Below are positions 14,796 through 63,972 of a stretch of 64,000 bases of DNA, in pieces. The notes under the pieces were generated by a model that had not been told where the DNA came from, did no database searches, and saw only the letters and a list, made by a program, of their open reading frames with translations. The position numbers were made by a program, and so were the translations under genes. The DNA is from Pseudomonadota bacterium (lineage in GTDB: Bacteria; SAR324; NAC60-12): assembly GCA_004213175.1 (NCBI GenBank), contig SHAT01000001.1, positions 1,720-65,719 on the forward strand, given 5' to 3'. Position 1 is the first letter of the stretch; every line of letters starts with the position of its first letter.

Positions 14796-14848
14796 TTATC
14801 TACAAAATTTTTCGCCAAATAACAATCTGACAAAGGAGTTTACCGCTT

Positions 14849-15637: not shown

Positions 15638-15744
15638 TTAATTTCGACTTAAATCCATTAGTAGTAATTTTATTTTTATTAAAAAGAAAAAACGGATTCT
15701 AGGGAAACAGTTTAAAAAAACACTACGTATTAAAAATAGAATCA

Positions 15745-16758: not shown

Positions 16759-16946
16759 TCATAGAGACTTGCTTTGCTGGAGCATCAGCAAATTATAGAA
16801 AGTGATGATTTTCAGATTAGACTTCTAAAATTAGAAACAAATCTAATTTTAGAATATACTTAATTAAAAGGTTTTTCTTTTATGCTTTTCGAAAATGAGA
16901 AACTTTCTTAATTTCTTAATTATTAATTTTTAAAATTGTTTTAAAA

Positions 16947-17717: not shown

Positions 17718-18060
17718 ACTGCAAATTTTTTTCAGGAATTATGTTTCCATGGGGTGTTTCGTGTGTTTTCAGATAAGAATCATTGGAAGTTCTAACAACC
17801 AATTTGAACAATGTTAGACTCGCCATACCAAAATCCCATTTCAAAATATTGTTTAGAATAGCTCAGCTTTCTTCTGCATTAGATAAAAGAAATCCTTCTA
17901 AGATCTATAGAAAGAGAACTCTTAGCATGTCTGTTTTGTTCATATAAAATATCCTCCTGAAGTAGACCCTTTCAATTAATAATGTATGCCGTTTTACAAG
18001 CAATTTTGTTATACATTGATAATAAAATCTAAATTTTAAAATAGTTATTAAAGCTTCTTC

Positions 18061-21000
18061 ATGACCATAAGTTCCAGCAGATCCGGCCTTTCCCAACTTG
18101 AGAAACAACTGGAGTTACTGACTGCATTTAATCTACAGGTACCTTGTAACCCTCAAGGAGATTTTGCAAAAGCCGGATTTAAAAAATTACTGCAATCCCT
18201 CAAAACAACCAAAATCAGCGATTCCATTCGTGCTTCCTACAACGCAGAACATCTTAAAAAATGGAAAGAGTATGCTCAAAGTGAATTTAATGAAATGGGA
18301 CGAATAAACCGCTTAAGACTAGAAAGTTTGATGCTACTTTCAGATGAAGAAATGATTAAAACCATGTTTGAAGGTCTGCTCATTTTTGATATCAATCCTG
18401 AAGATTCACGGCAGTTGGAAGTACATGAAAAGACAGGTAAGTATAATGATGATGGAAAACCCGTAACACGCAATATCGCATTTGACGTTTTTAAAAAAGA
18501 TGCAATTCACGGAATAGAAGGAATCGAGAGATTCTTACCATCACCTGCAATCAAGGGTGAGGCAGGTATGGATGCTCATCTGGAGCATGAATTTTCTGGC
18601 ACAGACCTCGTCAGTCATTTTAAAAAAGATTCCGCAAAGATGATTAAAGCCCTCACAACCATTGGAAGTCTTGGCGGAATAGGACACAAGCCCGATTCAG
18701 ACATGGATGCGCAGGTAATTATAAATACAAACCCGGAATTTCAATTTAGCTGGAATGATGCGGATTTTCTGGTGGCATTGATTGCAAATGTTTTAGAGTC
18801 TTTTTATGATCAGTACTTTCGCTATTCTCTGACTGCAAAAGAACGTATCGAAATAAATAAAACTGCGATAGCTACTTTAAAAGAAAAATGCAGTGAAGGA
18901 ATCAGCGAAGAAGAATTGCGTGTGATTGACTCTATCTTTGCAAGCAGTTACCGCAGAGAATTGAGAAAATTAATTCAAGCACATGTGCAAAAGCGTCCTG
19001 CAGAAGAGCAAAGAAGATTTTTCCTAAAGGCAGTCATCACGACTTTAAACTCTTTTCCAGATTGTGAGGATTTGCTATCACCGCTTAATAATTTTTTCCC
19101 ATTCATAAAAAACACTGGTGGGGACCTTGAACGAAAAGGTTTCCCCTTTTCGTTCAAGCAATTTAAAAAAGAAAAAGTTCTAAAGTGGTTAATTCAGTAT
19201 TATCGTCATACTTTTCTCGATGATGCAGGTGCCCGTCAAGTTTTATGGCGCTATGCAGTCAGCAACAACATGACACCGGATTCCGTCCCTGAGGAAAAAC
19301 AAAACGCTTGTTTTTTGAACAGTTTGACTAATAACTCTCAGTTATCATTACTGCTGAAGGAGTTTTTTGAGTTCCTATCCAGCAAGGTGGCTTTTTCAAC
19401 ACGTAAAAATGTGGCAGAAGCAATAAAATCATTAAAAGAGCACTTCAGAGCAAACAATTTAGAACTTGATGGAAATCTGGAAGAACATATTTCCTCCATG
19501 TTTGAAATCAATTACAGTTCCAGAATCGTTGAGTTGATTGAAGTTTTTTCTGATGGACAAGCCAAAGACGTTGAAGCTCAAATTGAATATCCTTTACATC
19601 TCAAAATTCAGCAAGCAGAAGCTTATCTTACGAAAAAATATCCATCAACAGAAATACATTTTTTCACCAATATTCTACGAAAACAGCGCAACGGACAGCA
19701 TACCCCATTTTTAGTTTCTCCGGAAGGCAGTATGGCTTATGCACTGATGCTTAACGATTTCCTGCTAAATCCTGCTGCCATGATCTGCGGTATAACACCC
19801 ATGCCTTTTGACCTACCTAAGAATTTTAAGGTTCTTTCTTCAATTGGAGTTTTTCCGGATGAGGAGTGGACACTCAAGCAAAATCTTGATGCAGAATATA
19901 AAGTACCATCAAAAACTGCTAAACCGGAAAACGAAGAAGGACAGACAAAAAAGACGTCAGGAGAAAAGATACCTATTCTTGAAGAAGAAACAGAGTCATT
20001 TGTGCTTGGGAAATTACCGAACTGGGGTGAAATTATTATCCCGCGTGAAATGTTTCTGGGGCATGCACTGCCTATTTTTTTACGTGAAAGTGAGAAAATT
20101 AGTCACCGTAATCTTCCCAAAGCATTATTAAACTGCTGGTGGCTGGAAATGATTGTCTGCATTGACAAGGATGATGATCTACCTACAAGTCTGACACGAC
20201 TCTTATGGAATCCGGAAGGCAGAAAATTTATCAGCGAACAACATAAAGGTTCGTTGATTGACGCAATCATTAAAATGGAGGACGATTATCCTCCACTACC
20301 ACTTGATCCGTGGTGGTTGAAATTTACAGAGATGCTGGTACGTTTCGAAAGCTACGAACAGGATGAAGAGGAAGAACCGGATTATGAACTTACTACTCTT
20401 TCTGAAACTCAAAAGAATATTGTTTTTTGCTTTTCTCAGCACATGCGCATTACTGATATTATTAATTTCGGAGATGAAGGAAAAGCATTCTGGCAGGGTG
20501 AAGATGCAAACTGGCGCAGCAGAGCCTTAGTTGATTTTTACAATATTTTCTTTTCTGTTCCTGAGGACCGTCGTGAACTGATTCGCTTTGCTGAGGGACG
20601 TGACGATGCAGGAAACAAAGTGGAAAAAATGCTCAAGAAACTTTTTCTTGAATCGATGACACGAGTAGAGAAGAAACTCTGCAAAATAGGACACACACGT
20701 GCACTGCAACAAATAAGCAACCAACTGGCACGATTGTGCGAGAAAGGTTTTGAAAAAGAAAAAACAGCAAAATTCCTCAGCCCTTTGCTAGACCTTGTTA
20801 ATCAACGTGTTTCCATAGAAGACAGAAAAGTACTGATAAAACTTAAAAAGAAAATCCCGCTCAACAAAATTGAACAAATGCAGGCTAAGATTGTTTATGA
20901 AGAATTACAAAAACTAAAAAGCGTGCAGGGCAACATTGTTGATTATTTTGCTCAGTTTAGGTTAAAAATGGAAGAAAGTTGGGTCCGTAAAACAATCACA

Positions 21001-21924
21001 AACGCCAAAGTGAAAATAGCCGGAAATTCATTGGAAAATGTTATTTTTAAATTTCATTTTGAGCGTAATTTTGAAAGAAAACCTTTTCAGGTTCCTTTGC
21101 CGATTTCAAAGAGTCTGAGTATCCCTCGTTCCAAAATAAAAGTAGAATTTATCCGTAAAACAGCAAAATGGAAATTCAGTTCTGTTCTCAGCCACAGAGA
21201 AGCCGGAAGAGAAAAGAATGCAGAAAATGTGATGCCGATGTTTGAGTCAAATCTGGTAGAAGGTGTTGCGCGCTGCACTTTTAGCGGATATGTAGGTTTT
21301 GGTGGAAAGCATCTTTCAACCTTTGAAAAACCTGCATCACAAGTTCATAGTGACATTGCAATGAACGCCGTTTCAGGTGGTGCACTAGTTATAATAGCAA
21401 AAGAAATAATAAAATTTTTCAAGCCGTTCACAGTTTCATCTCGAGAGTTAATGTCAGACATACATTACGTACGTGACATTCTAATGATCTGTAATGTCAA
21501 TAAGAATGATACTCTTTCGCTAATTGTGCGAGATAATCTGGGTGAGCAATTTGTGATCAACTTTGATATTCAAAAAATTGACGTAAAGAAAGTTCCTCCA
21601 AAATTAAGAATAGGCGGCGACTCTGTCGTTGCAGAATTCTTTATGAGACTCAACAGCCAGCAGTGCCGACTTTTATTCATGAAAAATTTGTCAGCCTTAA
21701 AAATTCCTCTACGTACTTCATTTCAACCTCGTCTGCATATTTGGGTCAATGGAGCAAATTACAACCTACCAGTAACACCAAAATTTCAGCAGAATTACCT
21801 TAACGGAATTGCAAATACTCTCTGGCCTCATAACTCGATTGGAACACGTGAGCATTTAAAACCTGTTAATTTAAGCAGGACATTTGATGAAATTGGCAAA
21901 GAATCTATGCACGGGACTGAATAA
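18061..21924 (+). CDS. Class I (CyaA-type) adenylate cyclase homologue with large N- and C-terminal extensions
   Basis: 1287 aa. Around residue 205 there is a Pol-beta-type NTase motif, TTIGSLGGIGHKPDSDMDAQVII (E. coli CyaA has GSTSSVGQSCSSDLDIWV). Also VLESFYDQYFRYSLTAK (E. coli LLDEFYRTAVRLAGK), FFLKAVITTLNSFP, and VFCFSQHMR (E. coli VFCYSQHLR). The E. coli strings are recalled from memory, not retrieved. Confidence 0.6.
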   Translation: MTISSSRSGLSQLEKQLELLTAFNLQVPCNPQGDFAKAGFKKLLQSLKTTKISDSIRASYNAEHLKKWKEYAQSEFNEMGRINRLRLESLMLLSDEEMIKTMFEGLLIFDINPEDSRQLEVHEKTGKYNDDGKPVTRNIAFDVFKKDAIHGIEGIERFLPSPAIKGEAGMDAHLEHEFSGTDLVSHFKKDSAKMIKALTTIGSLGGIGHKPDSDMDAQVIINTNPEFQFSWNDADFLVALIANVLESFYDQYFRYSLTAKERIEINKTAIATLKEKCSEGISEEELRVIDSIFASSYRRELRKLIQAHVQKRPAEEQRRFFLKAVITTLNSFPDCEDLLSPLNNFFPFIKNTGGDLERKGFPFSFKQFKKEKVLKWLIQYYRHTFLDDAGARQVLWRYAVSNNMTPDSVPEEKQNACFLNSLTNNSQLSLLLKEFFEFLSSKVAFSTRKNVAEAIKSLKEHFRANNLELDGNLEEHISSMFEINYSSRIVELIEVFSDGQAKDVEAQIEYPLHLKIQQAEAYLTKKYPSTEIHFFTNILRKQRNGQHTPFLVSPEGSMAYALMLNDFLLNPAAMICGITPMPFDLPKNFKVLSSIGVFPDEEWTLKQNLDAEYKVPSKTAKPENEEGQTKKTSGEKIPILEEETESFVLGKLPNWGEIIIPREMFLGHALPIFLRESEKISHRNLPKALLNCWWLEMIVCIDKDDDLPTSLTRLLWNPEGRKFISEQHKGSLIDAIIKMEDDYPPLPLDPWWLKFTEMLVRFESYEQDEEEEPDYELTTLSETQKNIVFCFSQHMRITDIINFGDEGKAFWQGEDANWRSRALVDFYNIFFSVPEDRRELIRFAEGRDDAGNKVEKMLKKLFLESMTRVEKKLCKIGHTRALQQISNQLARLCEKGFEKEKTAKFLSPLLDLVNQRVSIEDRKVLIKLKKKIPLNKIEQMQAKIVYEELQKLKSVQGNIVDYFAQFRLKMEESWVRKTITNAKVKIAGNSLENVIFKFHFERNFERKPFQVPLPISKSLSIPRSKIKVEFIRKTAKWKFSSVLSHREAGREKNAENVMPMFESNLVEGVARCTFSGYVGFGGKHLSTFEKPASQVHSDIAMNAVSGGALVIIAKEIIKFFKPFTVSSRELMSDIHYVRDILMICNVNKNDTLSLIVRDNLGEQFVINFDIQKIDVKKVPPKLRIGGDSVVAEFFMRLNSQQCRLLFMKNLSALKIPLRTSFQPRLHIWVNGANYNLPVTPKFQQNYLNGIANTLWPHNSIGTREHLKPVNLSRTFDEIGKESMHGTE

Positions 21925-22052
21925 CAGATTTAAAATAGGAAATTTTATATGTTTATAAAAAACATTTCCTATTTATCTACCTTGTCCGTATAATAAATCT
22001 GACAGCAGCACTGGTCAGCACTTTATTTATGAACAAGCTACTGAGCTAGAAA

Positions 22053-23303
22053 ATGGCAGACAAAGAACCAAAAGAAAATCAAAAAACTCCGAATGTTAAT
22101 TTCATCAGTTTTCAAAAGCAGCTGCGTGGAATAGTTAAAGACGTTAAAGAGCATAATAAAAAAACAGGGCTAAAAAAAATTTTTGGTAGCAAAACTGAAA
22201 ATTTGCATGTCAACGGAAGTATTTTGCAAAAAGATATTCCAGACAATAAAGAAATTTCAAAGTATGTTAAACAGTTAGATAAAGAACCAAACAATGTCGA
22301 ATCACGTTTAATGTTGGTAAATACCGTATTGAATGCCAGAAAAGATCATTCATTGAGTACCCATCTGAACTTGATGCTGCAAGCTGCATTACCAGTTTAT
22401 CTAGGTGACATCACCCCAACAATTATACAGATTGTTGTGCATACCTACCGTTCTTATTTAGAATGCCTCGGCAATATTCACAAACAAAACATGATGGCCA
22501 TTAAATCAACTGCTCTGAAAAATGTGAATATGAAGGGGATTGATGTCAATGATGAAAAGACTGAAGATACCCATGTGAAAGACTCAGAGTCGATAAAAAC
22601 TGAAATTAAAATTGCAGAATCACTGATTGAAAATTGTGATTCTGTGATTCAAAGTGTAAAAACAAAAATGACTGCCACCCTTTCACATGAAGAAATTGAA
22701 GAGCTTACCGCTGAAGGTAAAGCATCCAGTTCTATGTTTGGCGGCAGCGAAGAAAAAGTGAATCCGAACAAACAAAATCTGATTATTGGTAAAGCCGTAC
22801 AGGCAATTGAAATATTGAAACAAATCCCATTGCTACAGGGTGCAGGGCTAGATCTGGCAAAACAACTAGGTCGCATTGACTCAAAGCTAACTTATCCACT
22901 AGTGATGGAGGGGCGTATTCAAATGCAGGCATTAAAATATCAATTGCTGAGGATAGAAAGTGGTGATCGTATTGCACGGGATAACATGGCTCCTGTATAC
23001 AATCTTGCATTAGTGGCTTACCGAAAAGCTTTGAAACTTACTTCAAAATCTACTCCTAAAAAAGCAGACCTACCAGTATTGACAGAGTTCGGAAATATGA
23101 CTCATTATGGTTATATACACCGTGATCTAATGCGCTTTACCGAAGAAGGTGTAAAAACTTTGGTCAAGCTAGGGAAAGATTCTGTTGATGCAGCAGTAAC
23201 CGTAGATGAAAGTTTTGTCCCACTACAAAAACGTCTAGAGAGTTCAATGACTCAGCTCTTCCAAAATGAGACACAAGCAAATAGTAAAGTCAGATTCAAC
23301 TGA
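22053..23303 (+). CDS. Hypothetical protein, 416 aa, predicted mostly helical, no recognisable motif
   Basis: Long ORF in clean coding context 128 bp downstream of the cyclase-like gene, same strand. Lys/Glu-rich. Confidence 0.5.
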   Translation: MADKEPKENQKTPNVNFISFQKQLRGIVKDVKEHNKKTGLKKIFGSKTENLHVNGSILQKDIPDNKEISKYVKQLDKEPNNVESRLMLVNTVLNARKDHSLSTHLNLMLQAALPVYLGDITPTIIQIVVHTYRSYLECLGNIHKQNMMAIKSTALKNVNMKGIDVNDEKTEDTHVKDSESIKTEIKIAESLIENCDSVIQSVKTKMTATLSHEEIEELTAEGKASSSMFGGSEEKVNPNKQNLIIGKAVQAIEILKQIPLLQGAGLDLAKQLGRIDSKLTYPLVMEGRIQMQALKYQLLRIESGDRIARDNMAPVYNLALVAYRKALKLTSKSTPKKADLPVLTEFGNMTHYGYIHRDLMRFTEEGVKTLVKLGKDSVDAAVTVDESFVPLQKRLESSMTQLFQNETQANSKVRFN

Positions 23304-39417: not shown

Positions 39418-42402
39418 TTGAACCATGAAACTGGTCTTGTCTATATGAGGTTACTATGGAATTTCTTTGTTCTGTTAACCTTCAGCATCTTGACTGCTGT
39501 CAGCGCACTCGCGCAAAAGACAGATGCCTACAATAATCCTATCTTAATTAATAATATCGAGTTGCTGCGCCGTGGCAAGCAAATCAGTGTACGTCTTCTC
39601 ACAAACAAAGCCCCAGATTACGAAATAACTGAAAATCTTGCAGCCCGAACGTTGGTGTTAAAGATCAAAAACGCAAGTGCTGTTTTTAAAGACGGACGTC
39701 TTGAACGTCTATTTAATGATTCTCAATTGGCAGGAATCCGTTTTTTAGCAATTGACGGTGACAGTTGGGCACAATTTAAATTGTTGCAAAAAGATTTAAG
39801 TTATTCCGTCAGTTCTCTCGAAAAGAACAATGGAGTTCAAATTGATTTCCGCCCCACATTCCAAGTTCAACCCTTGCCCGATCCCCTCGAAGACTCTGTG
39901 TATGAGCTTTCTGATATTGATTTTGACACCAGCAAAGGAAATTTTACACGTATAACTTTCAGTTTTAACAAACTGTCAAAGATCTCAGCAGATGGTTCTG
40001 TTCCCGAAGACAAGCATCCACCACGAATTTTTTTACTGGAAGACAGCCAACAAACTTTGCTGACAATCCGAATGCCCAATACTTTAGCTAAAAAAAATCT
40101 GGGTGGAAAAAAATATAAAGGATCACGTTTAGAACTGGCATCACTCAAATCAAATGTAAACCAAACCTTTGTTGAATTAAAACTCAAAGCAAGAGCGGTT
40201 AGTGTGGAACGACATTTTGTGTCTAGTCCGCTTAAATGGATGCTCGACATTCATGGGACACCATACAAGAAAAAAACTACCACTTTAGCAATGGAAGGGA
40301 AAAAACTGAGTCAGAAAGAATTGGCTCTGCTTGAATCTAAGGAAAACGCACGCCGTATTAGAAATTCTAAAATCAATCCCATAATTCAACTTGGTGAAAC
40401 CGCTTTTCGTACGAGAATGTATGATGAAGCTGTAAAACATTTCAGGGAAGCTTATGCTCTCGGAAAATCTCACACTCAAGAAGAGTTTGGTGATCCTCTC
40501 CATCCATTAGCAGCAAGAGCACTTTTCCGGATCGGAGACACGATATACACGATGCTTGAGCGTCGCATAGGCAATAACTATCACCAAGCAATTGAAGCAT
40601 ACAAAACAGCAATCCGTATCACACAGGATGCAGAAAAATTTGCTCAGGAAAATGGTGAAACGTTTGTCACGACGTCTCTTTTACCTCACGCAATTTTGCG
40701 GATCGGTCGTGCGTATCAAAAAATGAATTTCCAACATGAGGCTGATGTTTACTTTAAAATATTGCGGGATCGTTTCTCAAATTCAATTCAAGCCAATGAG
40801 GCAAATTTTTGGCAGGGTATGAGTGGTATAGAGCAAAGACAATGGGAAAACAGTATCACAAATTTTAAAGAATATTTGCGTTCTACCCCACAACCAAAAT
40901 ATTTTGCTGTTACACATTACAAAATGGCACAGGCTTATTATCAACTTGAACGATACATCACCGCACGCGAATTTTTTGACATAGCGCGTAATGTTGACAA
41001 GGAATACGTCAAAGATGACCCAACATTATTATTCCACATGGGGGAGACTTATTATGAAAATGCAGATTATGTAACGGCACGTGAAATTTTCCGGCTCCTC
41101 CTGCAAAAATATCCAAAAGCTGATTTTTCAAAATTAGTCGCACTTCGTCTAGGTGATTTTCTGCGAGACGAAGGTAAAGAAGACGAAGCTATTCAAGCCT
41201 ACAAAAAAGCAATCAGCAGTTACAAAAGAGAAATTGCTCTACTTGGAAAATTGCGAATTGCGAACATTCAGGCAAAACGCCCATATACAGAGGAACACCT
41301 TGAGGCAATCAAGGTATATGATGAAATAGCCAGACTATATCCAGAAACTCCTCAGGCAGAAGAAGCAATGCTCCGAAAAGGATTGACGCTTACACTTTAT
41401 GGTTCTTATGAAGATGCTATAAAATCTCTGGAACTTTTCATGGAGAAATATCCTCAAAATGTATACGTGCTAAAAAATGTAATTCAGGAGAACATTGATG
41501 AAAATCTGAAAGGGCTTATAGATAGTTATTTTCGCCAGAACGACACGCTTGCCCTGGTAAGTGCATATAGTGATTATAAAGCAAAATATCTTTTCGATTT
41601 CCGTTTTAATACTACTCTTTTTCAAACTGCGGTAGCTCACCGCAAACTACAATTTTTTGATGAAGCACTAGATATTTTACGCTTTCTCGAAACACGTTCC
41701 GGAGGAACAATCAGCGAATTGGTTCAGCTTGAAAAAGCTCGCACGCAGTTAGAAAAAGAAGATCTGACAGAAGCCCGAAATACTATTGCTAGATTTCTAA
41801 AACATTCCCCTGAAAGTCCTTACGACTCTGAAACTAGGCAACTGTTGGCACGTATTTACAGAAAACAGAAATCATACCCCAAAGCATTACTTGTTTACAA
41901 ACAAACTATTCAAAAATACAATCAAAACAAGAAACCGTTGTTAGCCGAAATAGTTCCCGAGCTCTATTATGATTTAGGCGAATTACATGAGGAAACAGGG
42001 AATTTTGTAGAAGCAGGGAAAGCTTTTCAGGGAGCGATTTCAAGCTATAAACACCCGCTTGATCATAAGGACACTCCAGAGTATATTATCAAAAGCCATT
42101 TCCTGTCAGCAGATATGCACAAGAAAGCACATAATTATGAGACTGCGCTGAAGACCTATCAGAATGCAATTTCTCTTTATGGAGACAAGAAGAGCAAGGA
42201 AATAATTGAACTTGTTTTTTGGGCAACCTATCATATAGGAACTATTTATTCACGACAAGATAAAGATCAGAAGGCATTAACAATATTCAAAAAACTGATG
42301 ATTGAAAAAACAGGTGAAGGTCACCTTTGGAAAAAACTTGCGAAAGAAAATCACCATAGGATTTCTAGAAAATTAGCGTATGATAATTATCTTAAAGAGT
42401 GA
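39418..42402 (+). CDS. Large secreted TPR-repeat protein
   Basis: 994 aa. Probable signal peptide from the internal Met (MRLLWNFFVLLTFSILTAVSALA). Numerous TPR-like A/Y/F-spaced helices in the C-terminal two thirds. Confidence 0.7.
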   Translation: MNHETGLVYMRLLWNFFVLLTFSILTAVSALAQKTDAYNNPILINNIELLRRGKQISVRLLTNKAPDYEITENLAARTLVLKIKNASAVFKDGRLERLFNDSQLAGIRFLAIDGDSWAQFKLLQKDLSYSVSSLEKNNGVQIDFRPTFQVQPLPDPLEDSVYELSDIDFDTSKGNFTRITFSFNKLSKISADGSVPEDKHPPRIFLLEDSQQTLLTIRMPNTLAKKNLGGKKYKGSRLELASLKSNVNQTFVELKLKARAVSVERHFVSSPLKWMLDIHGTPYKKKTTTLAMEGKKLSQKELALLESKENARRIRNSKINPIIQLGETAFRTRMYDEAVKHFREAYALGKSHTQEEFGDPLHPLAARALFRIGDTIYTMLERRIGNNYHQAIEAYKTAIRITQDAEKFAQENGETFVTTSLLPHAILRIGRAYQKMNFQHEADVYFKILRDRFSNSIQANEANFWQGMSGIEQRQWENSITNFKEYLRSTPQPKYFAVTHYKMAQAYYQLERYITAREFFDIARNVDKEYVKDDPTLLFHMGETYYENADYVTAREIFRLLLQKYPKADFSKLVALRLGDFLRDEGKEDEAIQAYKKAISSYKREIALLGKLRIANIQAKRPYTEEHLEAIKVYDEIARLYPETPQAEEAMLRKGLTLTLYGSYEDAIKSLELFMEKYPQNVYVLKNVIQENIDENLKGLIDSYFRQNDTLALVSAYSDYKAKYLFDFRFNTTLFQTAVAHRKLQFFDEALDILRFLETRSGGTISELVQLEKARTQLEKEDLTEARNTIARFLKHSPESPYDSETRQLLARIYRKQKSYPKALLVYKQTIQKYNQNKKPLLAEIVPELYYDLGELHEETGNFVEAGKAFQGAISSYKHPLDHKDTPEYIIKSHFLSADMHKKAHNYETALKTYQNAISLYGDKKSKEIIELVFWATYHIGTIYSRQDKDQKALTIFKKLMIEKTGEGHLWKKLAKENHHRISRKLAYDNYLKE

Positions 42403-54268: not shown

Positions 54269-56950
54269 TCAAGATAAAGCCGGTGGGTTAGAGCCAATAT
54301 CACCGTTACGGAAACGCAACAATTGTTTACGCAAATAGGGATGTCTTTTAGAAGGATAATCTACGTCACGTGCTGCCTTGATAATAATTTCAACCGCTTT
54401 CTTTGTATCACCTGATTGAAAATAAGCTTCGGCCAAAGTATCTAAATTATCTATAGTAGGAAGCACATTGACTGATTTCAGGGCTAACTCCATTGCTCTT
54501 TCAAGATTGCGCAACTGTCTGTCCTGAGCAGTTAGATAAAGCCATGCAAGGTTGTTCAGCACCAAATCGTCTTCTGGGCGTATAGCAATTATTTTTTCAT
54601 ACATTTCGATTGTTGCCGCTTCGTTGCCTAACAATGTTTCAACGTTTGCCAGCCTGAATCTGACATCAAACGCCTGCTGATGTTTCTGCAAAAATTTACT
54701 GTAGTGTTTTCTGCTTTGTTCCAATTTTTCCAGTCTCTCATAGACCCAACCCAAGCGTGCATGAATCCAGGTATTTTCCGGTAGTATTTTTGAAACTACT
54801 TCAAAATGCTTCGCTGCCATTTCCTTATTCCCTCTCATTTCATGAAAAAAGCCCCAATGCTCGTGCATCCATGGCGGCAATTTTTTTGATGTCATATCCT
54901 TCGGTTCTATTATAATCTCGCTCGGCGCACCCTCTAGCAGAAAATGAATATTTTTCAACACCTGCCGAGTAAAAGGATCGGTCCGAACCGAAGTAATTTT
55001 CTCCCAGGCTTTTTTAGGTGTTTGACTCACAAGTGCTTTTAAAACAGGAAGAAGAATTTCATATCTCTCCCCAAACCATCGGCTCAGTTGCTCTTCCGGT
55101 AGTAGAAGCAAATGAAGATTCCACGCCCAGAGGCTCCCAGGATTTTCATAAAGCGCCTGTGTTATGTTTTGACGTGCCATCGTTATTTTATTACGTTTCC
55201 ATTGTATAAAGCCCAAATGTGTAAGCAGCAATGAATTATGTGGACGTAATTTCAACAGTTTCTGATAAACTATTTCCGCTTCATCCCATCTGTACTGAAT
55301 TTTGTACAAACGACCCAGATTTTGAAGTAAACCTAGAGAATCTTTGTACTTTAGTAGACCTTTGTTGAGTAAAGATTCAGCTTCTCCAAATTGCGCCTTA
55401 TTCAATTTTAACTGCGATAACTCTATCAGCGCCCATTCAGAATCAGGATTTTGCTTGAGTAAATTCTTAAGCTCTATTTCTGCATATTTTGAATTCTCTG
55501 TTTTTAACAATAAGCCAATTTTTTGAATAAGTGCCCATTCAAAATCACTAGAAACCGTGAGCGCTTTATTAAAAAAAGCTATAGCCTTTACTGGACGATT
55601 TAATTTTTTTTCATAAAATCCTATTTTGGCCAGTGCAGCAGAATTGTTAGGTTCCAACTGTAAAAAAGATGATAATATTTTTGCTGCTTTTTCAAAAAGA
55701 CCGTGTGATTCATAATAATTAACAAGTTTTTCAATCAGCCCTGTTGCAGTAGGAAATTTCTCTAGCCCCCTTAAAAGTGTGTTTTCACCTTTTTCAAATA
55801 AGAACTCATTCCAATAGAGACGGTTAAGGTGATTTATGACCAACAGGTTTGCAGGAGAATTTTTCATCAGCCATTCATAGCGTTCAATTGCTTGCTCATT
55901 TTTTCCTAACATTTCCAAAGCATGGGCCACTTGCTGAATCGCCCATTCGTTTTCAGCATCATTTTTTAAACCCTCTTCAAAAGAGAGCAACGCCGATTCC
56001 CATTTTTTTTGTGAAAGATAAACAACACCCAAACGAAAGCTGGCCCATGGATAGTTCGATTTTAAAATCAAAGCACGGCGCAAATGTTTTTCAGCGGTCG
56101 CATATTTTTCTTGGCTCCAAGCCCAATTACCAAAATGTGCCTCTGCCCAACTGCTATCAGGAAACAATTTTAGCATGTGCAAAAGAGTTTGCCGCAGATC
56201 TTCTTGAATTTTTAAAGTTTTTCCGTGAATTGCCTGACCAAGCTCTTTTTCCTGCAAAAAGACAAGTTGTCTCAGATACAGCTTTGATTCCGGAGAAAGT
56301 TCAACTGCTCGCAGCATGGCCAATTTTGCTTTGGCTGTATTGTTCCGCCTCTCCCATAGAGCAGAAATCCGGAACCATAGGTCAGGATTCTGGTCATTTA
56401 TTTCACTGGCTCTAATAAACGAATCCAGTGCCTTTTCAGACTGATCCAAAACATTAGGGCCTGTTTCCATAGAATAAATCAAACCAATTAGAAAATGTGC
56501 TTCAAACAAATCCGGCTGCAAAGTTATTACTTTTAGGGCATCTGCAAGTGCAAGCTGCTTTTTTTTCATGCGCCAGGATAACTTTGCACGATCTAAATAA
56601 AGCAGTGCTTCTTTGGAATGTCTAGTGATTTGTTCTGAATAAAATTTGTAAGCATCATTATAAAGACCCAAACGCTGGAAGAGAGCCCCCTCTAAACGGA
56701 CAAGCGCAATTGCTTCAGTAATACGCTGCTGCCCAACACGGAGAACTGAGAAGGTTTCGTTGTAGCGTCCTTGAATTTCAAGATATTGAGCCAGACGGAC
56801 ATAAGCCAATTCATGCACAGGATGAATCCGGACAGCATTGCGTAATCTATTTTCTTCTATATTCTGAACTGGACTTTTATATACCTGACAGGCTGAAGAA
56901 AAGCATTTTACTACAAGAATAAATATGATAAATAAATAACGTTTTTTCAT
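54269..56950 (-). CDS. Large TPR-repeat lipoprotein
   Basis: 893 aa. Signal peptide/lipobox-like MKKRYLFIIFILVVKCFSSAC. TPR helices throughout. 11 bp downstream of the exbD-like gene. Confidence 0.7.
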   Translation of the reverse strand: MKKRYLFIIFILVVKCFSSACQVYKSPVQNIEENRLRNAVRIHPVHELAYVRLAQYLEIQGRYNETFSVLRVGQQRITEAIALVRLEGALFQRLGLYNDAYKFYSEQITRHSKEALLYLDRAKLSWRMKKKQLALADALKVITLQPDLFEAHFLIGLIYSMETGPNVLDQSEKALDSFIRASEINDQNPDLWFRISALWERRNNTAKAKLAMLRAVELSPESKLYLRQLVFLQEKELGQAIHGKTLKIQEDLRQTLLHMLKLFPDSSWAEAHFGNWAWSQEKYATAEKHLRRALILKSNYPWASFRLGVVYLSQKKWESALLSFEEGLKNDAENEWAIQQVAHALEMLGKNEQAIERYEWLMKNSPANLLVINHLNRLYWNEFLFEKGENTLLRGLEKFPTATGLIEKLVNYYESHGLFEKAAKILSSFLQLEPNNSAALAKIGFYEKKLNRPVKAIAFFNKALTVSSDFEWALIQKIGLLLKTENSKYAEIELKNLLKQNPDSEWALIELSQLKLNKAQFGEAESLLNKGLLKYKDSLGLLQNLGRLYKIQYRWDEAEIVYQKLLKLRPHNSLLLTHLGFIQWKRNKITMARQNITQALYENPGSLWAWNLHLLLLPEEQLSRWFGERYEILLPVLKALVSQTPKKAWEKITSVRTDPFTRQVLKNIHFLLEGAPSEIIIEPKDMTSKKLPPWMHEHWGFFHEMRGNKEMAAKHFEVVSKILPENTWIHARLGWVYERLEKLEQSRKHYSKFLQKHQQAFDVRFRLANVETLLGNEAATIEMYEKIIAIRPEDDLVLNNLAWLYLTAQDRQLRNLERAMELALKSVNVLPTIDNLDTLAEAYFQSGDTKKAVEIIIKAARDVDYPSKRHPYLRKQLLRFRNGDIGSNPPALS

Positions 56951-56961
56951 AACATCTTTTC

Positions 56962-57486
56962 TTATTCTTCAGAATTCAGACTCTGGTATGGGACTTTCCA
57001 ATTTGGCAACATAGGCTCGAGTCCAAAATTTAAGTTACCTATTTTTTCAATAACAACCATCAATAATTCTGAAGTCAACACGCCATCAGGATAAACTAAT
57101 AACAGTGGATAGTATTCATTTTTTCCAAACTGTTTTTTTATATTGGTATTCAGTTGAAAGAGTTGAATCAGGTATGACAACAATTCTAGATTTTCTCCCT
57201 GTACTTGATTCAGCAAATTCTCCAATGTAAGAGTGTAATCCTGATTCTCAAACAAATTGTAATATACAACCCGGTCCGAGTAACAGCGAATAAATATTGG
57301 TTTGACATATTCGGGCGCACCAAACCATTCAAACTTGATACTCTTGGACGTTGATGTCGAATCAGCGTCCTTCGGAAATACAAGTAAGAAACTGATAGAA
57401 AGGAAAGCCAAAACACCCATAGTGCTGAGCAGTACACTCAGGAATGGAAACAAAGTAACACGAGGAGAATGAGCGGGATACCTCAT
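56962..57486 (-). CDS. ExbD/TolR-family protein
   Basis: 174 aa. Single N-terminal TM (FPFLSVLLSTMGVLAFLSISFLLVF) plus a periplasmic domain with an ExbD-like pattern (LLLVYPDGVLTSELLMVVIEKIGNLNFG). ATGA start/stop overlap with the upstream gene. Confidence 0.55.
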   Translation of the reverse strand: MRYPAHSPRVTLFPFLSVLLSTMGVLAFLSISFLLVFPKDADSTSTSKSIKFEWFGAPEYVKPIFIRCYSDRVVYYNLFENQDYTLTLENLLNQVQGENLELLSYLIQLFQLNTNIKKQFGKNEYYPLLLVYPDGVLTSELLMVVIEKIGNLNFGLEPMLPNWKVPYQSLNSEE

Positions 57487-58709
57487 CGATTTGACTCTTT
57501 ACTATTGTTCATGAGCCCTTCTTCCTGCAAGTCTTCTGTTTTCGGACTTGCGGACTTTTCATTATTTTTTTCAACTTTCTTAATCTCACCCATTTCATCT
57601 TTTGCTTCAAACAAAGATTCACTGAATTTTTGAATCAAAGGTTGCAATCCTCGAACTTGCGCAGCAAGACCTTTTGAATATTGCTCTACTGATTTAAGCA
57701 CTGGAGAAACCTGTTTACGCCAGTCCTCGGCAAAATCAGCCATTTGCTCCAATTGTCCAGTTACAGCATCATCCAGTAGTTCATCGCCAGGACGTAAATG
57801 TAAATTAGGCAGCAGATCTTCCAGACAGTACTCTTCGACACTGAGCAGCAAATCTTCTTCACGTTTGCGCAAAGAAGAGGCGAGCATCATGATAGGGACG
57901 ACTCCAACAAGAGCTATGAATGTTGTACTGAAGGCGATAGACAGACCGCTTGTAACCCCACCGAGGGCTGAACGTATTTGCGTGTTCATGTCTGTGCTGT
58001 TAGTACTGCGTATAAAATCTGAAAATTCTCCGATTGACTGTCCAATACCAAAAACAGTGCCGATAAATCCAAGAATTGGGATTGCCCAGATAAACACATT
58101 TAGTAAAGCATAACTGCTTTGCATTCGGTTGTGGTCTATTTCTGCCTGATAATTCAGAATCGAGGTTATTTCTTCCTTTTTCGGAATGGCTTTTAAGTGT
58201 CTTAAGGTACGGCGTACCCTCCTAAAAATGATACTATCCTGAAATTTTTTAACTTTTTGCTCCTGTAAAAATTGACTGATTTCCAGGATACGTTCGTCCA
58301 CATCCTTCACATAGATACCATTTGAAAACGAGTCATGCAGTAACTGATTCCGGAATGCCGCATAGGTCTGATGCTGCTGACGAAACTGAATCCACTTGAA
58401 ATAAATCAAAAATATTGACCAGAGCACGAGGGCAAAAATAGTTTCTGAAATACGTCCGGAAAACAATTGCTGCCAGTACTCACTCCTGATTAAAGGCATC
58501 GGAAATACAAGATAGAAGATCCCTGTAAAAAACACTCCTAATATTAGTGATTTGAATGAATTAAGCGCTTCGATTCCTGGTGATTCTGCCAAATACGAAT
58601 GGCAGTTTTGACAATAAGCAGCTGTATCGGAATTTGACCATCCGCATTTAAGGCATTTCATTTGTTGACCAATTTGTGTAATGATTTTTTTAACCTGGAT
58701 TCCGCTCAT
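57483..58709 (-). CDS. MotA/TolQ/ExbB-family proton-channel protein with N-terminal zinc ribbon and extended C-terminal tail
   Basis: 408 aa. N-terminal CLKCG...CQNCH zinc ribbon. Canonical channel motif IPILGFIGTVFGIGQSIGEF...ALGGVTSGLSIAFSTTFIALVGVVPIMM. About 130-aa acidic/coiled-coil C-terminal tail. Confidence 0.75.
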   Translation of the reverse strand: MSGIQVKKIITQIGQQMKCLKCGWSNSDTAAYCQNCHSYLAESPGIEALNSFKSLILGVFFTGIFYLVFPMPLIRSEYWQQLFSGRISETIFALVLWSIFLIYFKWIQFRQQHQTYAAFRNQLLHDSFSNGIYVKDVDERILEISQFLQEQKVKKFQDSIIFRRVRRTLRHLKAIPKKEEITSILNYQAEIDHNRMQSSYALLNVFIWAIPILGFIGTVFGIGQSIGEFSDFIRSTNSTDMNTQIRSALGGVTSGLSIAFSTTFIALVGVVPIMMLASSLRKREEDLLLSVEEYCLEDLLPNLHLRPGDELLDDAVTGQLEQMADFAEDWRKQVSPVLKSVEQYSKGLAAQVRGLQPLIQKFSESLFEAKDEMGEIKKVEKNNEKSASPKTEDLQEEGLMNNSKESNR

Positions 58710-61908: not shown

Positions 61909-62886
61909 GTGTCCATTTCAAATTCGTCCAATCGTTCTTTTCAGCACTCAATCTTTACTGTACTGATCGGGTTGTTTTTATTTTCACTGACTTCCACGGT
62001 TTGGCCAAAGGAATACAAACCGAGTGCGGTGGTTATGGGATTAAACACAAGTTCCACACCAGAATTTTCGGAACAAATCTTGCTTCACAAATTGAGGAAT
62101 GAATTAGCCGGCAGCTTTGATTTAAGAAAGCAAGGCGCTTTTGAAATAGCCCTAAATAAACTTCAAAGTTCCACAGAGAAAAATTACTGTCTTCAGCTAA
62201 AATGTATACTGGAGGTACTTGAGGCATTTCCACAGACAAGTTTATTCTTACTGAAAAGCCAACCTGAAAATAATAGACTAACTCTGGTACTGATAGGCGA
62301 AAATCAGCGCTGGCGAGTGATAAATGAAGTTTGTGCACTCTGCTCTTTGACTCCGGAAGAGATGTTGAAAAATGTAGTGCTCAGAATGGAGAGTTACGCA
62401 ATGCCTCCAATGGTAGTGGAACGCACAAGGCCTCAGACTCTTTCTTCTTCAACTTCTACGGAAACAGTCAGAGAGAAAACCGATTCTGCAAAAACAAAAA
62501 ATAAAACGGCAAAGTTTTTGTCCGACACTAAATTACGCAAAAGAACGAAAAGGTTTAAACCGAAAACCAGTTCGCCGTTGGACGAACTGCAATTCAAAAT
62601 TGCACAAAGACGTTACAATCAGTTAATTTGGAATAATATCAAAAAAGATTTAATGTTTTTTCGACAAAAAAACCGTAGTCAGACCATTAAAAACTTAAAA
62701 GCACGATTGAGACTTCAGATTGATCAATCCGGTAAGGTGATTGAAAGACGTTTGTTAAAAGCAAGTGGTTCTCAAAAATTCGATAAATCGATTCTTGATT
62801 CAGTTGATTTGCTGAAACTTCCTCCACCGATGGAACTGCTGATTCGACATCCACCTTACGTAGTTACGATACTGATTCAACCTTAA
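61909..62886 (+). CDS. TonB-like energy-transducer protein (TonB C-terminal domain)
   Basis: 325 aa. N-terminal TM (IFTVLIGLFLFSLTSTV). Lys-rich linker. C-terminal TonB_C-like pattern (ARLRLQIDQSGKVIERRLLKASGSQKFDKSILDSVDLLKLPPP). Confidence 0.55.
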   Translation: MSISNSSNRSFQHSIFTVLIGLFLFSLTSTVWPKEYKPSAVVMGLNTSSTPEFSEQILLHKLRNELAGSFDLRKQGAFEIALNKLQSSTEKNYCLQLKCILEVLEAFPQTSLFLLKSQPENNRLTLVLIGENQRWRVINEVCALCSLTPEEMLKNVVLRMESYAMPPMVVERTRPQTLSSSTSTETVREKTDSAKTKNKTAKFLSDTKLRKRTKRFKPKTSSPLDELQFKIAQRRYNQLIWNNIKKDLMFFRQKNRSQTIKNLKARLRLQIDQSGKVIERRLLKASGSQKFDKSILDSVDLLKLPPPMELLIRHPPYVVTILIQP

Positions 62887-62982: not shown

Positions 62983-63972
62983 ATGGACATTATTTCAGCA
63001 GAAGAGCAAAATTCTGAAATGCCAAATCCCGAAGTAGGAGCAGTTGCTGAACAAAAGCCCTCTCTTCCACCGAATGAGGCCTTGAAGCTTGTTTTTGGAG
63101 AATATGCTGCAAATACTCAGCGTGCATACGCGCGCGCTTTCAGGGATTTACAGGAATGGGCAGATATCCGGGAGCTGAGGGAAATGGAGGACTTCGATCC
63201 TCTCTGGATGCTAGAATATAAAAATCAGCTGAAATCCTCAGGCAAAAAAGCTTCGACCATCAACCAAACCATGAGTGCCCTGCGCAAAGTCTGTAAGGTG
63301 CTGACAGAATTTGGCTACCTCAAACAAAATCCTTTCAAAGCTTCTGTCATCCGCGCAGAAAAAATTGACACTGCAACCAGTAAGGGGGCTCTCCAAGTTT
63401 CTCAGCTCAATGCCATGATAGAAGCAAATAAGGTAATGCAATATGATGGACGTATGGCACCCCTGCTCCGGGTTAGGAATGATTTGGTGTTGAAATTTCT
63501 GTATCTCACCGCAGCCCGACGCGGTGAAACCGCTGGTTTATGCTGGAGTGATATTGTACAGGATGGGTCTTTTTATGTAGCAGTACTGAAGCATACGAAA
63601 AGCGGAAAAGAACAGCGGATAAAATTAAGACATGAACTTCATGAAGAACTATCCGAGTGGAACTCATTTCTGCAACAAAATAACATTAATTCCGCGTATG
63701 TTTTTCCATCACTTGGCTTTAGGACTCATGGTCAAAAAATGTCTGGAAAAGGTATTAATGACATTGTTTCCAGACTCGGCAAAGCAATTGGTTTAAATAT
63801 TTCGGCACATTATCTTAGACACACTGCAATCACTCTTTCATTGGAATTGGGCGAACCGTTGCAGAAAGTCCAGTCTTATGCACGACATGCTTCAGCCAAT
63901 ACCACTATCCGTTACTTCCATGACCGACAACTTTTAGAAAAAAACCCTACCGATAGCCTACCCTTGATTTAA
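62983..63972 (+). mobile_element. Tyrosine recombinase / phage-type integrase
   Basis: 329 aa. N-terminal SAM-like core-binding domain. Catalytic C-terminus LRHTAITLSLELG...YARHASANTTIRYFH (R, H-x-x-R, Y). Visibly GC-richer than its surroundings. Confidence 0.8.

What the first reader, a model, noticed from the sequence alone, without database searches (positions are those of the whole stretch)
54269..58709. Three-gene operon: zinc-ribbon-fused MotA/ExbB-like channel, ExbD-like partner and an 893-aa TPR lipoprotein
The 408-aa channel protein has an unmistakable MotA/TolQ/ExbB motif. It also adds a cytoplasmic CxxC-x10-CxxC zinc ribbon at the very N-terminus and a roughly 130-aa acidic coiled-coil tail. 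It is translationally coupled (ATGA overlap) to a 174-aa ExbD/TolR-like protein. An 11-bp gap separates that from a giant TPR lipoprotein. There is no TonB, TolA, MotB-type peptidoglycan-binding domain or flagellar context in the operon. Proton-motive stator units with unusual appendages power diverse machines: Ton, Tol, gliding Agl, and Zorya-type defence. The appendages here suggest an uncharacterised energised envelope machine.
Basis: partly seen in the sequence, partly recalled or inferred. Interest (0 to 1): 0.6.

Follow-up and report, generated by a model that had tools for sequence, protein, structure and literature searches.

The report
Divergent proton motor, partner gene elsewhere
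This three-gene operon of a marine SAR324 bacterium encodes an unstudied branch of the proton-driven motors that power flagella, Tol and Ton systems, and its usual proton-carrying partner subunit appears to be encoded elsewhere in the genome, so what the motor drives is still unknown.

Summary
Three co-oriented minus-strand genes are present: A (408 aa), B (174 aa, ATGA overlap) and a TPR lipoprotein (893 aa, 11-bp gap). A is a real MotA/ExbB/TolQ-family protein by Pfam and by fold. Its CxxC-x10-CxxC zinc ribbon is conserved; the true start is probably M17, which keeps the ribbon.

B matches no Pfam, NCBIfam or PADLOC model. It looks TolR/ExbD-like only in gene position, in its membrane-helix motif and weakly in fold. 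It has Ser where ExbD, TolR and MotB have the essential Asp.

Relatives in SAR324, Planctomycetota and Verrucomicrobiota usually carry A, B1 (Asp-less) and B2 (a paralogue, always with Asp). The window's lineage lacks B2 beside A. SAR324 contigs carry B2 at a separate locus, coupled to a cytoplasmic TPR protein and next to fliN/fliM.

Best reading: a new variant of the 5:2 ion-driven motor, probably with a mixed B1/B2 axle, working with TPR scaffolds. Its output is unknown. Gene neighbourhoods point in turn to Tol-like, cell-wall and flagellar functions.

It is neither an ordinary TolQR or ExbBD pair nor Zorya. Family membership is well supported; the axle composition and the function are inferred.

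The parts
57483..58709 (-). Gene A: a MotA/ExbB/TolQ-family channel subunit. It is 408 aa as called and probably 392 aa from M17 at coordinate 58661.
   Evidence: Pfam PF01618, 46.8 bits. The AlphaFold model m12d3960c1374 has pLDDT 72. All 50 best Foldseek PDB hits are ExbB, TolQ, MotA, PomA or ZorA chains, most with probability 0.9-1.0 and a best TM-score of 0.60 to ExbB 5sv0. Homologue alignment A1.
58602..58655 (-). N-terminal cytoplasmic zinc ribbon, C19-x2-C22-x10-C33-x2-C36
   Evidence: C33 and C36 are invariant and C19 and C22 are at least 90% conserved in alignment A1. Pfam Zn_Ribbon_1 scores 22.5 bits against a cutoff of 25. A different CxxC-x16-CPxC ribbon sits at the same position in most Planctomycetota homologues.
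57834..58229 (-). MotA_ExbB core (residues 161-292), holding the last two membrane helices and the conserved Thr218 and Thr263
   Evidence: Pfam envelope. hhalign against E. coli TolQ gives probability 67% and E 5e-5. It aligns GFIGTVFGI with GLFGTVWGI (T218 to TolQ T145) and T263 to TolQ T178. Both Thr are invariant.
57486..57863 (-). Acidic C-terminal cytoplasmic tail (residues 283-408), with a long helix at 309-381 followed by a disordered end
   Evidence: Charge count, model, conservation to about residue 365. PADLOC ZorA2 gives a weak partial match over residues 191-383, E 6e-6.
56962..57486 (-). Gene B (B1): a single-pass TolR/ExbD-like protein without the canonical Asp. The membrane helix is residues 13-36 (57379-57450) and Ser17 is the codon at 57436-57438.
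   Evidence: No Pfam, NCBIfam or PADLOC hit. The model m78c11b327b6c has pLDDT 75. TolR 5by4 is Foldseek rank 34 with E 0.079, probability 0.93 and TM-score 0.58, the highest target-normalised TM-score listed. B1 is a paralogue of the Asp-bearing B2: hhalign probability 93.6%, E 2e-7.
54269..56950 (-). Gene C: an 893-aa periplasmic TPR lipoprotein. The signal peptide has the lipobox FSSAC, with Cys21 at 56888-56890.
   Evidence: Only TPR families match. The best NCBIfam hit, PrsT, scores 177 against a cutoff of 312, and GltE scores 79 against 225. The lipobox Cys is conserved in most of 17 orthologues. The gene follows B1 in loci L002-L025.
61909..62886 (+). A possible but unproven partner: a TonB_2-domain (TolA/TonB-like) membrane protein, 3.2 kb upstream and divergently oriented
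   Evidence: Pfam PF13103, 32.3 bits against a cutoff of 22. Linkage is kept only in the closest relatives, L009 and L012. A homologous 538-aa Pro-rich TonB_2 protein and a PD40 (TolB-like) protein directly precede A-B1 in L023, L026, L027, L028 and L032.

Best explanation
The operon encodes part of a previously uncharacterised branch of the MotA/ExbB/TolQ '5:2' ion-driven motor family.

Shown:
- A is a four-helix member of that family, and by fold it is closest to ExbB and TolQ. It keeps the two pore-lining threonines.
- A carries a conserved cytoplasmic N-terminal zinc ribbon and an acidic helical C-terminal tail.
- B (B1) is a single-pass protein, translationally coupled to A. Its membrane-helix motif (LFPFLSVLL) matches the TolR/ExbD motif (VPLLDVLL) except that Ser replaces the proton-carrying Asp.
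- In SAR324, Planctomycetota and Verrucomicrobiota the usual gene set is A, B1 (Asp-less) and B2 (a paralogue that always has the Asp).
- In marine SAR324, B2 lies at a second locus. There its start overlaps the stop of a 600-aa cytoplasmic TPR protein.

Inferred:
- Five A subunits surround an axle made of one B1 and one B2, so only one of the two axle helices can be protonated.
- Proton flow turns A around the axle.
- The work is passed to the envelope through the periplasmic domains of B1 and B2 and the TPR lipoprotein. A TolA/TonB-like protein may take part.
- The zinc ribbon, the tail and the cytoplasmic TPR protein dock or regulate the motor from inside the cell.

The process being driven is unknown. 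The most likely kind is a Tol-like or Agl-Glt-core-like envelope task.
For: Family and fold of A.

Conserved ribbon and conserved Thr.

B1 likeness to TolR.

B1 and B2 are paralogues, with Ser aligned to Asp.

Gene order A-B1-B2 is seen in about 45 of 84 loci, across three phyla.

Census of the Asp position. In the loci, B1 has 70 Ser and 7 Asp, and B2 has Asp in 46 of 46. Among 149 representatives of the wider B1 family the pattern count gives about 75 Ala and 38 Ser (a few pattern matches are off-register) against only 3 Asp.

The window holds no B2 and no second A or B.

Unlinked B2: 79 of 80 metagenome loci carry B2 without A or B1, mostly at GC 0.35-0.41, like the window at 0.38.

Exact sequences of five of the eight unlinked B2 proteins queried are named SAR324 cluster bacterium or Deltaproteobacteria bacterium in NCBI.

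A TPR599-family gene ends at the B2 start in 75 of 80 loci.

The marine B2 is 47-53% identical to the B2 of L001. That is the same divergence as the window's A and B from their L001 counterparts.

One B1 (MDP7582676.1) and one B2 (MDP7582551.1) have NCBI accessions 125 apart, which suggests a single SAR324 MAG.

Against: No multimer model or experiment supports the 5:1:1 assembly.

The link from B1 to TolR/ExbD is weak at both sequence and fold level: a PDB profile search found nothing, hhalign against ExbD gave probability 4%, and Foldseek gave E 0.079.

Presence of B2 in the same genome as this window is inferred, not shown.

The TPR lipoprotein is kept only in the window's own SAR324 subclade, and it is not homologous to the TPR proteins linked to B2 elsewhere.

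Context clues for function point in three directions (Tol-like, cell wall, flagellum), and none is universal. Planctomycetota loci show no conserved neighbours.
Confidence: 0.55

Rival explanations
1. The system is a flagellum-associated accessory motor or scaffold. A-B1-B2 and the TPR proteins would work at the flagellar base, as the large periplasmic TPR proteins PflA/PflB, FlcA and MotX scaffold stators in other bacteria. The cytoplasmic face of A would contact FliN-type switch proteins.
For: In 10 loci of a deep SAR324/Lambdaproteobacteria clade, A starts 170-440 bp after fliP. It lies at the end of motA-motB-motB'-fliL-fliN-fliO-fliP on the same strand.

In L050 a 93-aa FliN-domain gene (PF01052, 69.5 bits) lies directly upstream of A, on the same strand.

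In marine SAR324, fliN and fliM are the divergent neighbours of TPR599-B2.

The window itself carries flgF, flgG, flgA and flgH.

The role of TPR proteins as stator scaffolds is my own knowledge.
Against: No flagellar gene lies within 8 kb in 32 Planctomycetota and Verrucomicrobiota loci, or in most SAR324 loci.

The L050 arrangement is absent from its sister locus L051.

In the window the flagellar genes are 36 kb away.

By fold, A is nearer to ExbB and TolQ (TM-score 0.5-0.6) than to MotA (0.25-0.45).

B has no peptidoglycan-binding domain.

The deep-clade loci already hold a regular motAB.

The loci within each clade are not independent observations.
Confidence: 0.2
2. The system is this lineage's Tol-Pal motor. 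A-B1(-B2) would replace canonical TolQR and energise the TonB_2/TolA-like protein, which acts on a TolB-like protein. The TPR lipoprotein would play a CpoB-like role in division and outer-membrane upkeep.
For: In L023, L026, L027, L028 and L032 the genes run PBP1A, a TolA-like TonB_2 protein, a PD40 TolB-like protein, HNH, A, B1 on one strand, with no canonical tolQR upstream.

A TonB_2 gene lies 3.2 kb from A in the window.

In the deep clade, PrsW, a Mur ligase and FtsW follow the module.

MurG lies near the marine B2.

CpoB is a TPR protein and is probably a lipoprotein outside Proteobacteria (PMC12204202).
Against: [quoted passage not shown] The phylum therefore probably keeps a canonical Tol system.

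No TolB or Pal homologue was found in the window.

The TonB_2 linkage is lost in most close relatives.

Planctomycetota are said to lack Pal (the same supplement) yet have A-B1-B2.

The TIGR02796 score is 31 against a cutoff of 221.
Confidence: 0.2
3. A and B1 alone form the complex (A5:B1x2). Having no protonatable Asp, the complex would not be a motor. It would be a static membrane scaffold or a regulator.
For: B1 has no acidic residue in its membrane helix. B2 is absent from the window and from beside A in about 30 SAR324 loci. Most of the wider B1 family has Ala or Ser at that position.
Against: The pore threonines that cradle the Asp in canonical motors are invariant.

An Asp-bearing paralogue is always present, either beside B1 or at a conserved second locus in the same group of organisms.

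No compensating change is seen in the A or B1 membrane helices between lineages with linked B2 and lineages with unlinked B2.
Confidence: 0.1
4. The genes are an ordinary ExbB-ExbD pair for TonB-dependent uptake, or a Zorya-type anti-phage system.
For: Pfam MotA_ExbB match. A TonB_2 gene lies nearby. PADLOC gives a weak ZorA2 hit, and A has a helical tail.
Against: ExbB TIGR02797 scores 12 against a cutoff of 206, and B has no ExbD PF02472 match.

No ZorB, ZorC or ZorD hit was found and B has no peptidoglycan-binding domain.

No TonB-dependent receptor is encoded within the operon.

The locus is a vertically inherited core locus: it is syntenic with rlmN in 18 SAR324 loci. It is not a mobile defence island.
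Confidence: 0.05

Closest known systems
TolQ-TolR / ExbB-ExbD (Tol-Pal and Ton motors)
   Same: A has the PF01618 core. Its model's best structural matches are ExbB and TolQ chains. The GxxGTVxGI motif and the second pore Thr are conserved. The partner gene is downstream, translationally coupled and single-pass, with a P-[FL]-L-x-V-L-L helix motif. TolA/TonB-like and TolB-like genes are adjacent in one clade.
   Different: A has four membrane helices rather than three, plus an N-terminal cytoplasmic zinc ribbon and a 126-aa acidic tail. The residue equivalent to TolQ E173 / ExbB E176 is Ile. The equivalog models fail by a wide margin. B is not a PF02472 member and has Ser in place of Asp. There are two different B-type proteins instead of a homodimer.
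Agl-Glt 'core complex' of Myxococcus and relatives (AglR, AglQ, AglS with GltD/E/C/G)
   Same: A TolQ-like channel with two different TolR-like proteins, predicted to form a heterodimeric axle (PMC11761067). It is associated with periplasmic TPR lipoproteins, a cytoplasmic TPR protein (GltI), TonB-C-terminal-domain membrane proteins (GltG, GltJ) and a cytoplasmic zinc finger (on GltJ). The function of the core complex outside gliding bacteria is unknown (PMC3169522).
   Different: AglQ and AglS are clear PF02472 members and AglR is an ordinary 245-aa TolQ-like protein (PMC3169522). Here the zinc ribbon is fused to the channel itself and one B paralogue lacks the Asp. The TPR proteins match GltE only at the level of generic repeats (79 bits against a cutoff of 225). 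No other Glt genes are nearby.
[quoted passage not shown]
   Same: The same phyla (Planctomycetes, Verrucomicrobia), the same gene kinds, and a function that is likewise unknown.
   Different: That locus is defined by membrane-anchored vWA 'force transducer' genes downstream. None was found after B2 in the eight Planctomycetota and two Verrucomicrobiota-or-other PVC loci tested. I could not check whether the two gene sets are the same family.
ZorA of Zorya anti-phage systems
   Same: A MotA-family channel with a long C-terminal helical tail. PADLOC gives a weak ZorA2 match, E 6e-6. ZorA appears among the fold hits (8vvn).
   Different: The tail has about 70 helical residues, against several hundred in ZorA (my own knowledge). 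There is no ZorB-type peptidoglycan-binding partner and no ZorC or ZorD. The locus is a conserved core locus.

Membership tests
[quoted passage not shown] | Match to the family model above the gathering score | tested here: met
   46.8 bits against a cutoff of 22.9, residues 161-292.
[quoted passage not shown] | Fold of the A subunit of a 5:2 motor | tested here: met
   All 50 best Foldseek PDB hits are ExbB, TolQ, MotA, PomA or ZorA chains, most with probability 0.9-1.0 and TM-scores up to 0.60. E-values are only about 3e-3, and the model has pLDDT 72.
[quoted passage not shown] | Pore-lining Thr on each of the last two membrane helices | tested here: met
   T218 and T263 are invariant. They align with TolQ T145 and T178.
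[quoted passage not shown] | Pentamer around a dimer of partner helices (5:2 stoichiometry) | not testable with these tools
   No multimer prediction was available.
TolQ (NCBIfam TIGR02796 equivalog) | Score above the equivalog cutoff | tested here: not met
   31.2 bits against a cutoff of 221.
ExbB (NCBIfam TIGR02797 equivalog) | Score above the equivalog cutoff | tested here: not met
   11.9 bits against a cutoff of 206.2.
ExbD/TolR (Pfam PF02472) | Match to the family model | tested here: not met
   B has no Pfam hit even at E up to 1. None of 10 distant B-family members has one either. A profile search of the PDB found no ExbD or TolR.
ExbD/TolR (Pfam PF02472) | Conserved Asp in the single membrane helix | tested here: not met
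   The position is Ser17. There is no acidic residue in residues 13-36. The paralogue B2 has the Asp but is not in the window.
ExbD/TolR (Pfam PF02472) | Periplasmic alpha/beta domain of the TolR/ExbD fold | tested here: inconclusive
   The model has strand-strand-strand, two helices, strand, helix, strand. TolR 5by4 has the highest target-normalised TM-score (0.58) and probability 0.93, but E is 0.079 and the rank is 34.
Flagellar stator MotA-MotB | B subunit with a plug and an OmpA-type peptidoglycan-binding domain | tested here: not met
   B has no OmpA or MotB_plug hit. True MotB genes in related loci do have both.
Zorya (ZorABCD) | ZorA with a long tail, ZorB with a peptidoglycan-binding domain, and ZorC/D or ZorE effector genes | tested here: not met
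   Only a weak partial ZorA2 hit (23.6 bits). Nothing was found for B or C. Neighbouring genes are housekeeping genes.
Agl-Glt core complex | AglR with two PF02472 TolR-like proteins, clustered with gltD/E/G/C homologues | tested here: not met
   B1 and B2 are not PF02472 members. GltE scores 79 against a cutoff of 225. The resemblance is in the list of components only.
Bacterial lipoprotein (gene C) | Signal peptide ending in a lipobox with an invariant Cys | tested here: met
   There is a hydrophobic segment at residues 5-25. A [SAT][AG]C motif is conserved in most of 17 orthologues. No dedicated predictor was run.

The most novel reading that the evidence does not exclude
A-B1-B2 is a distinct functional class of 5:2 motor. 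Its axle is an obligate heterodimer with a single protonatable Asp. In the abundant deep-ocean SAR324 group its genes are split over two loci. It is wired through a channel-fused zinc ribbon and a cytoplasmic TPR protein to FliN/FliM-type switch proteins, and through a TPR lipoprotein to the outer envelope. It would therefore do a job that none of the known motors (flagellar, Ton, Tol, gliding, Zorya) does.
Probability: 0.25. Interest if true: 0.8.

Novelty: new variant of a known kind. Interest (0 to 1): 0.6.

Why it matters
Motors built as five channel subunits around a two-helix axle are now known to drive several bacterial processes: flagellar rotation, nutrient uptake, envelope upkeep, gliding and phage defence. 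Each newly found branch has revealed a new machine.

This branch is widespread. The B1 profile finds 722 cluster representatives, and the system is present in SAR324, Planctomycetota and Verrucomicrobiota. Its partner proteins are annotated only as 'hypothetical protein' and have no Pfam family.

The pairing of an Asp-less axle subunit with an Asp-bearing one is a natural experiment on a specific question: does such a motor need two proton-binding sites? It also shows that reading a single operon can miss an essential subunit encoded elsewhere in the genome.

Tried and rejected
Mis-called start creating the ribbon: rejected. Homologues start at M17 and keep the ribbon.

Second A, B or B2 gene in the window: none found.

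Sequence links to solved structures. A alone and the A profile found no ExbB or TolQ in the PDB by HMMER. The B profile found none either. Only Pfam, hhalign and the fold search connect these proteins to known families.

Promoter and terminator scans around the operon gave no more sites than shuffled sequence.

vWA 'force transducer' genes after B2 in PVC loci: not found.

Homology among the three TPR proteins (893-aa lipoprotein, 599-aa cytoplasmic, 410-aa membrane-anchored): none beyond single repeats.

An exact-sequence look-up of the window's TPR protein found no record.

The literature searches found no paper on this family.

One odd hit to the B profile is a 1892-aa eukaryote-like protein (P0304) with 23 repeats resembling B residues 44-75. 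I treated it as a chance repeat match and did not pursue it.

Full report
**What is in the window**

- A, 57483-58709, 408 aa
- B, 56962-57486, 174 aa
- C, 54269-56950, 893 aa

The sequence shows the ATGA stop/start overlap between A and B, and an 11-nt spacer before C. Upstream, rlmN is transcribed divergently. Downstream lies a branched-chain amino-acid ABC transporter operon. Named homologues place the organism in the marine SAR324 cluster (Candidatus Lambdaproteobacteria). The window has 38% GC.

**Gene A**

Pfam places A in MotA_ExbB (PF01618, 46.8 bits against a cutoff of 22.9). The subfamily models for TolQ and ExbB fail by a wide margin: 31 against 221, and 12 against 206.

An AlphaFold model built on 22 homologues (pLDDT 72) has these parts:
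- a small N-terminal ribbon
- four membrane helices
- a helical cytoplasmic domain between helices 2 and 3
- a long C-terminal helix over residues 309-381
- a disordered end

Its 50 best PDB matches are all ExbB, TolQ, MotA, PomA or ZorA chains. TM-scores are 0.5-0.6 for ExbB and TolQ and 0.25-0.45 for MotA.

hhalign against E. coli TolQ aligns GFIGTVFGI with GLFGTVWGI. It places Thr218 and Thr263 on the two pore threonines. The conserved Glu of TolQ and ExbB is Ile here.

The four ribbon cysteines are conserved down to 47% identity. Every homologue below about 98% identity begins at MKCLKC, so the true start is probably M17 and the ribbon is real.

The tail is acidic, with 28 Asp/Glu against 16 Lys/Arg. 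It is conserved to about residue 365.

**Gene B**

B matches nothing in Pfam, NCBIfam or PADLOC. Its 281 close and 1152 profile-level relatives carry no Pfam domain. The listed hits that carry a name are all called hypothetical proteins.

The case that B is TolR/ExbD-like rests on four points:
1. Its position and its coupling to a MotA-family gene.
2. A single N-terminal membrane helix whose motif LFPFLSVLL aligns with TolR VPLLDVLL. ExbD gives only 4%.
3. A modelled alpha/beta periplasmic domain. TolR 5by4 gives it the best target-normalised TM-score (0.58, probability 0.93), but the match is not significant (E 0.079).
4. A clear paralogue that does carry the Asp (see the next section).

The position of the essential Asp is Ser17, and the helix holds no acidic residue.

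**The wider family**

A scan of species-representative genomes with the A alignment gave 80 loci. I called ORFs in them and searched with iterated profiles. The family falls into five groups:
- marine SAR324 with the CxxC-x10-CxxC ribbon
- a further ribbon-bearing SAR324 group (L001, L031, L035-L039)
- a deeper SAR324/Lambdaproteobacteria clade with no ribbon
- Planctomycetota, most with a different CxxC-x16-CPxC ribbon at the same place
- two Verrucomicrobiota loci

In about 45 loci the order is A, B1, B2. B2 is a second single-pass protein with the motif LDSLVDIVSN or LDSLLDTMTN. B1 and B2 are paralogues over their full length (hhalign probability 93.6%, E 2e-7), and the B1 Ser aligns with the B2 Asp.

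Counts at the Asp position:
- B1 in the loci: 70 Ser, 7 Asp
- B2 in the loci: 46 of 46 Asp
- 149 representatives of the wider B1 family: about 75 Ala and 38 Ser by a simple pattern count (a few matches are off-register), against 3 Asp

The B1 profile finds 722 cluster representatives among 1.84 billion. None of the 10 tested has a Pfam domain.

**Where B2 is in this lineage**

The window has no B2 and no second A or B. In the window's own clade, B1 is followed by the TPR lipoprotein or by nothing.

A metagenome scan with a SAR324 B2 alignment returned 80 loci. Of these, 79 carry B2 without A or B1 nearby, mostly at GC 0.35-0.41. Five of the eight unlinked B2 sequences I looked up are named SAR324 cluster bacterium or Deltaproteobacteria bacterium in NCBI.

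These B2 proteins are 47-53% identical to the B2 of locus L001. The window's A and B differ from their L001 counterparts by the same amount.

In 75 of the 80 loci, a gene for a roughly 600-aa TPR protein with no hydrophobic segment ends exactly at the B2 start. It is followed by relA/spoT, a GDPD gene and murG.

One B1 (MDP7582676.1) and one B2 (MDP7582551.1) have accessions 125 apart. NCBI numbers the proteins of one genome consecutively (my own knowledge), so this points to a single MAG.

I infer that this lineage has a split system: A-B1-lipoprotein at one locus and TPR599-B2 at another. This is not proven for the genome from which the window comes.

**The TPR proteins**

Gene C contains only TPR repeats. 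Its signal peptide and lipobox Cys are conserved in most of 17 orthologues.

In the deep clade a different, membrane-anchored 410-aa TPR protein follows B2. The three TPR proteins are not homologous beyond their repeats. What recurs is therefore 'a TPR partner', not one particular protein.

**Clues to function**

The contexts disagree with one another.

*Tol-like.* The window has a TonB_2-domain membrane protein at 61909-62886. In five SAR324 loci, PBP1A, a 538-aa Pro-rich TonB_2 protein, a PD40 (TolB-like) protein and an HNH gene precede A-B1 on the same strand. No canonical tolQR lies upstream.

*Cell wall.* In the deep clade, PrsW, a Mur ligase and FtsW follow the module. murG is near the marine B2.

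*Flagellar.*
- In 10 deep-clade loci A follows motA-motB-motB'-fliL-fliN-fliO-fliP.
- In L050 a 93-aa FliN-domain gene directly precedes A. Its sister locus L051 lacks this gene.
- fliN and fliM are the divergent neighbours of the marine TPR599-B2 pair.
- The window has flgF, flgG, flgA and flgH 36 kb away.

Planctomycetota loci show no conserved neighbours at all.

A related Lambdaproteobacterium is reported to have an ordinary tolQRAB-cpoB locus (supplement of PMC12204202). This argues against a simple replacement of Tol.

**Comparison with known systems**

The nearest families by sequence and fold are TolQ-TolR and ExbB-ExbD. Every specific membership test for those subfamilies fails.

By component list, the nearest analogue is the Agl-Glt core complex. 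It has a TolQ-like channel, two different TolR-like proteins predicted to form a heterodimeric axle, TPR proteins on both sides of the membrane, TonB-like anchors and a cytoplasmic zinc finger (PMC11761067, PMC3169522). Its TolR-like proteins are ordinary PF02472 members, however.

[quoted passage not shown] That may be the same family.

Zorya is excluded. There is no ZorB, ZorC or ZorD, and the locus is syntenic with rlmN in 18 SAR324 loci.

**Verdict**

The interpretation as an uncharacterised energised machine is broadly right, but incomplete in two ways: the operon probably lacks one essential subunit, and Tol-like and flagellar contexts do exist nearby or in relatives.

The finding is a new variant of a known kind of motor. 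Family membership is well supported. The mixed axle and the split system are reasonable inferences. The output of the motor remains open.

Noticed in passing
window 14025-23303 (+): The flagellar genes flgF, flgG, flgA and flgH (14025-17717) are followed by two large ORFs with no Pfam match: 18061-21924 (1287 aa) and 22053-23303 (416 aa). From my own knowledge of the usual gene order, this is where flgI would be expected.
   Followed up: no
window 61909-62886 (+): A TonB_2-domain protein (325 aa) with a His in its N-terminal hydrophobic segment and a Lys-rich rather than Pro-rich linker. Its C-terminus (PPYVVTILIQP) matches that of the TolA-like proteins that sit beside A in other SAR324 loci.
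   Followed up: partly
window 62983-63972 (+): A tyrosine recombinase (Phage_integrase with a SAM-like N-terminal domain) lies next to the TonB_2 gene. The pair is kept in L009. I did not determine whether it is a XerC/D-type enzyme or part of a mobile element.
   Followed up: no
window 39418-42402 (+): A second very large TPR protein (994 aa) with an N-terminal hydrophobic segment. It shows no BLASTP match to gene C or to the other module-linked TPR proteins at E 1e-3.
   Followed up: partly
L045 2130-4385 (also L040-L049, L052): The flagellar stator operon in the deep SAR324 clade encodes one MotA and two different MotB proteins in tandem, each with a plug and an OmpA domain. Two-paralogue axles may therefore be a theme of this lineage.
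   Followed up: no
L098 2259-3746 (-): The marine SAR324 FliN is 495 aa long. About 420 residues of extremely acidic, repetitive sequence precede a normal FliN C-terminal domain, and fliM lies downstream of it.
   Followed up: no
L026 7660-8004 (also L023, L027, L028, L032): A small HNH endonuclease gene sits between the TolB-like gene and A. It is conserved in five loci.
   Followed up: no
L001 1-3808: A type I-C-like CRISPR-Cas gene set (Csd1, Cas7, Cas4, Cas1, Cas2) lies about 6 kb upstream of A in a 3.47-Mb SAR324-related contig. It is probably unrelated to the motor.
   Followed up: no
P0304 (hit): A 1892-aa eukaryote-like protein has 23 tandem repeats (RGQVEVGWVGADNTVRPTS) that match B1 residues 44-75 at E 3e-16. 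I judge this a chance repeat match.
   Followed up: no
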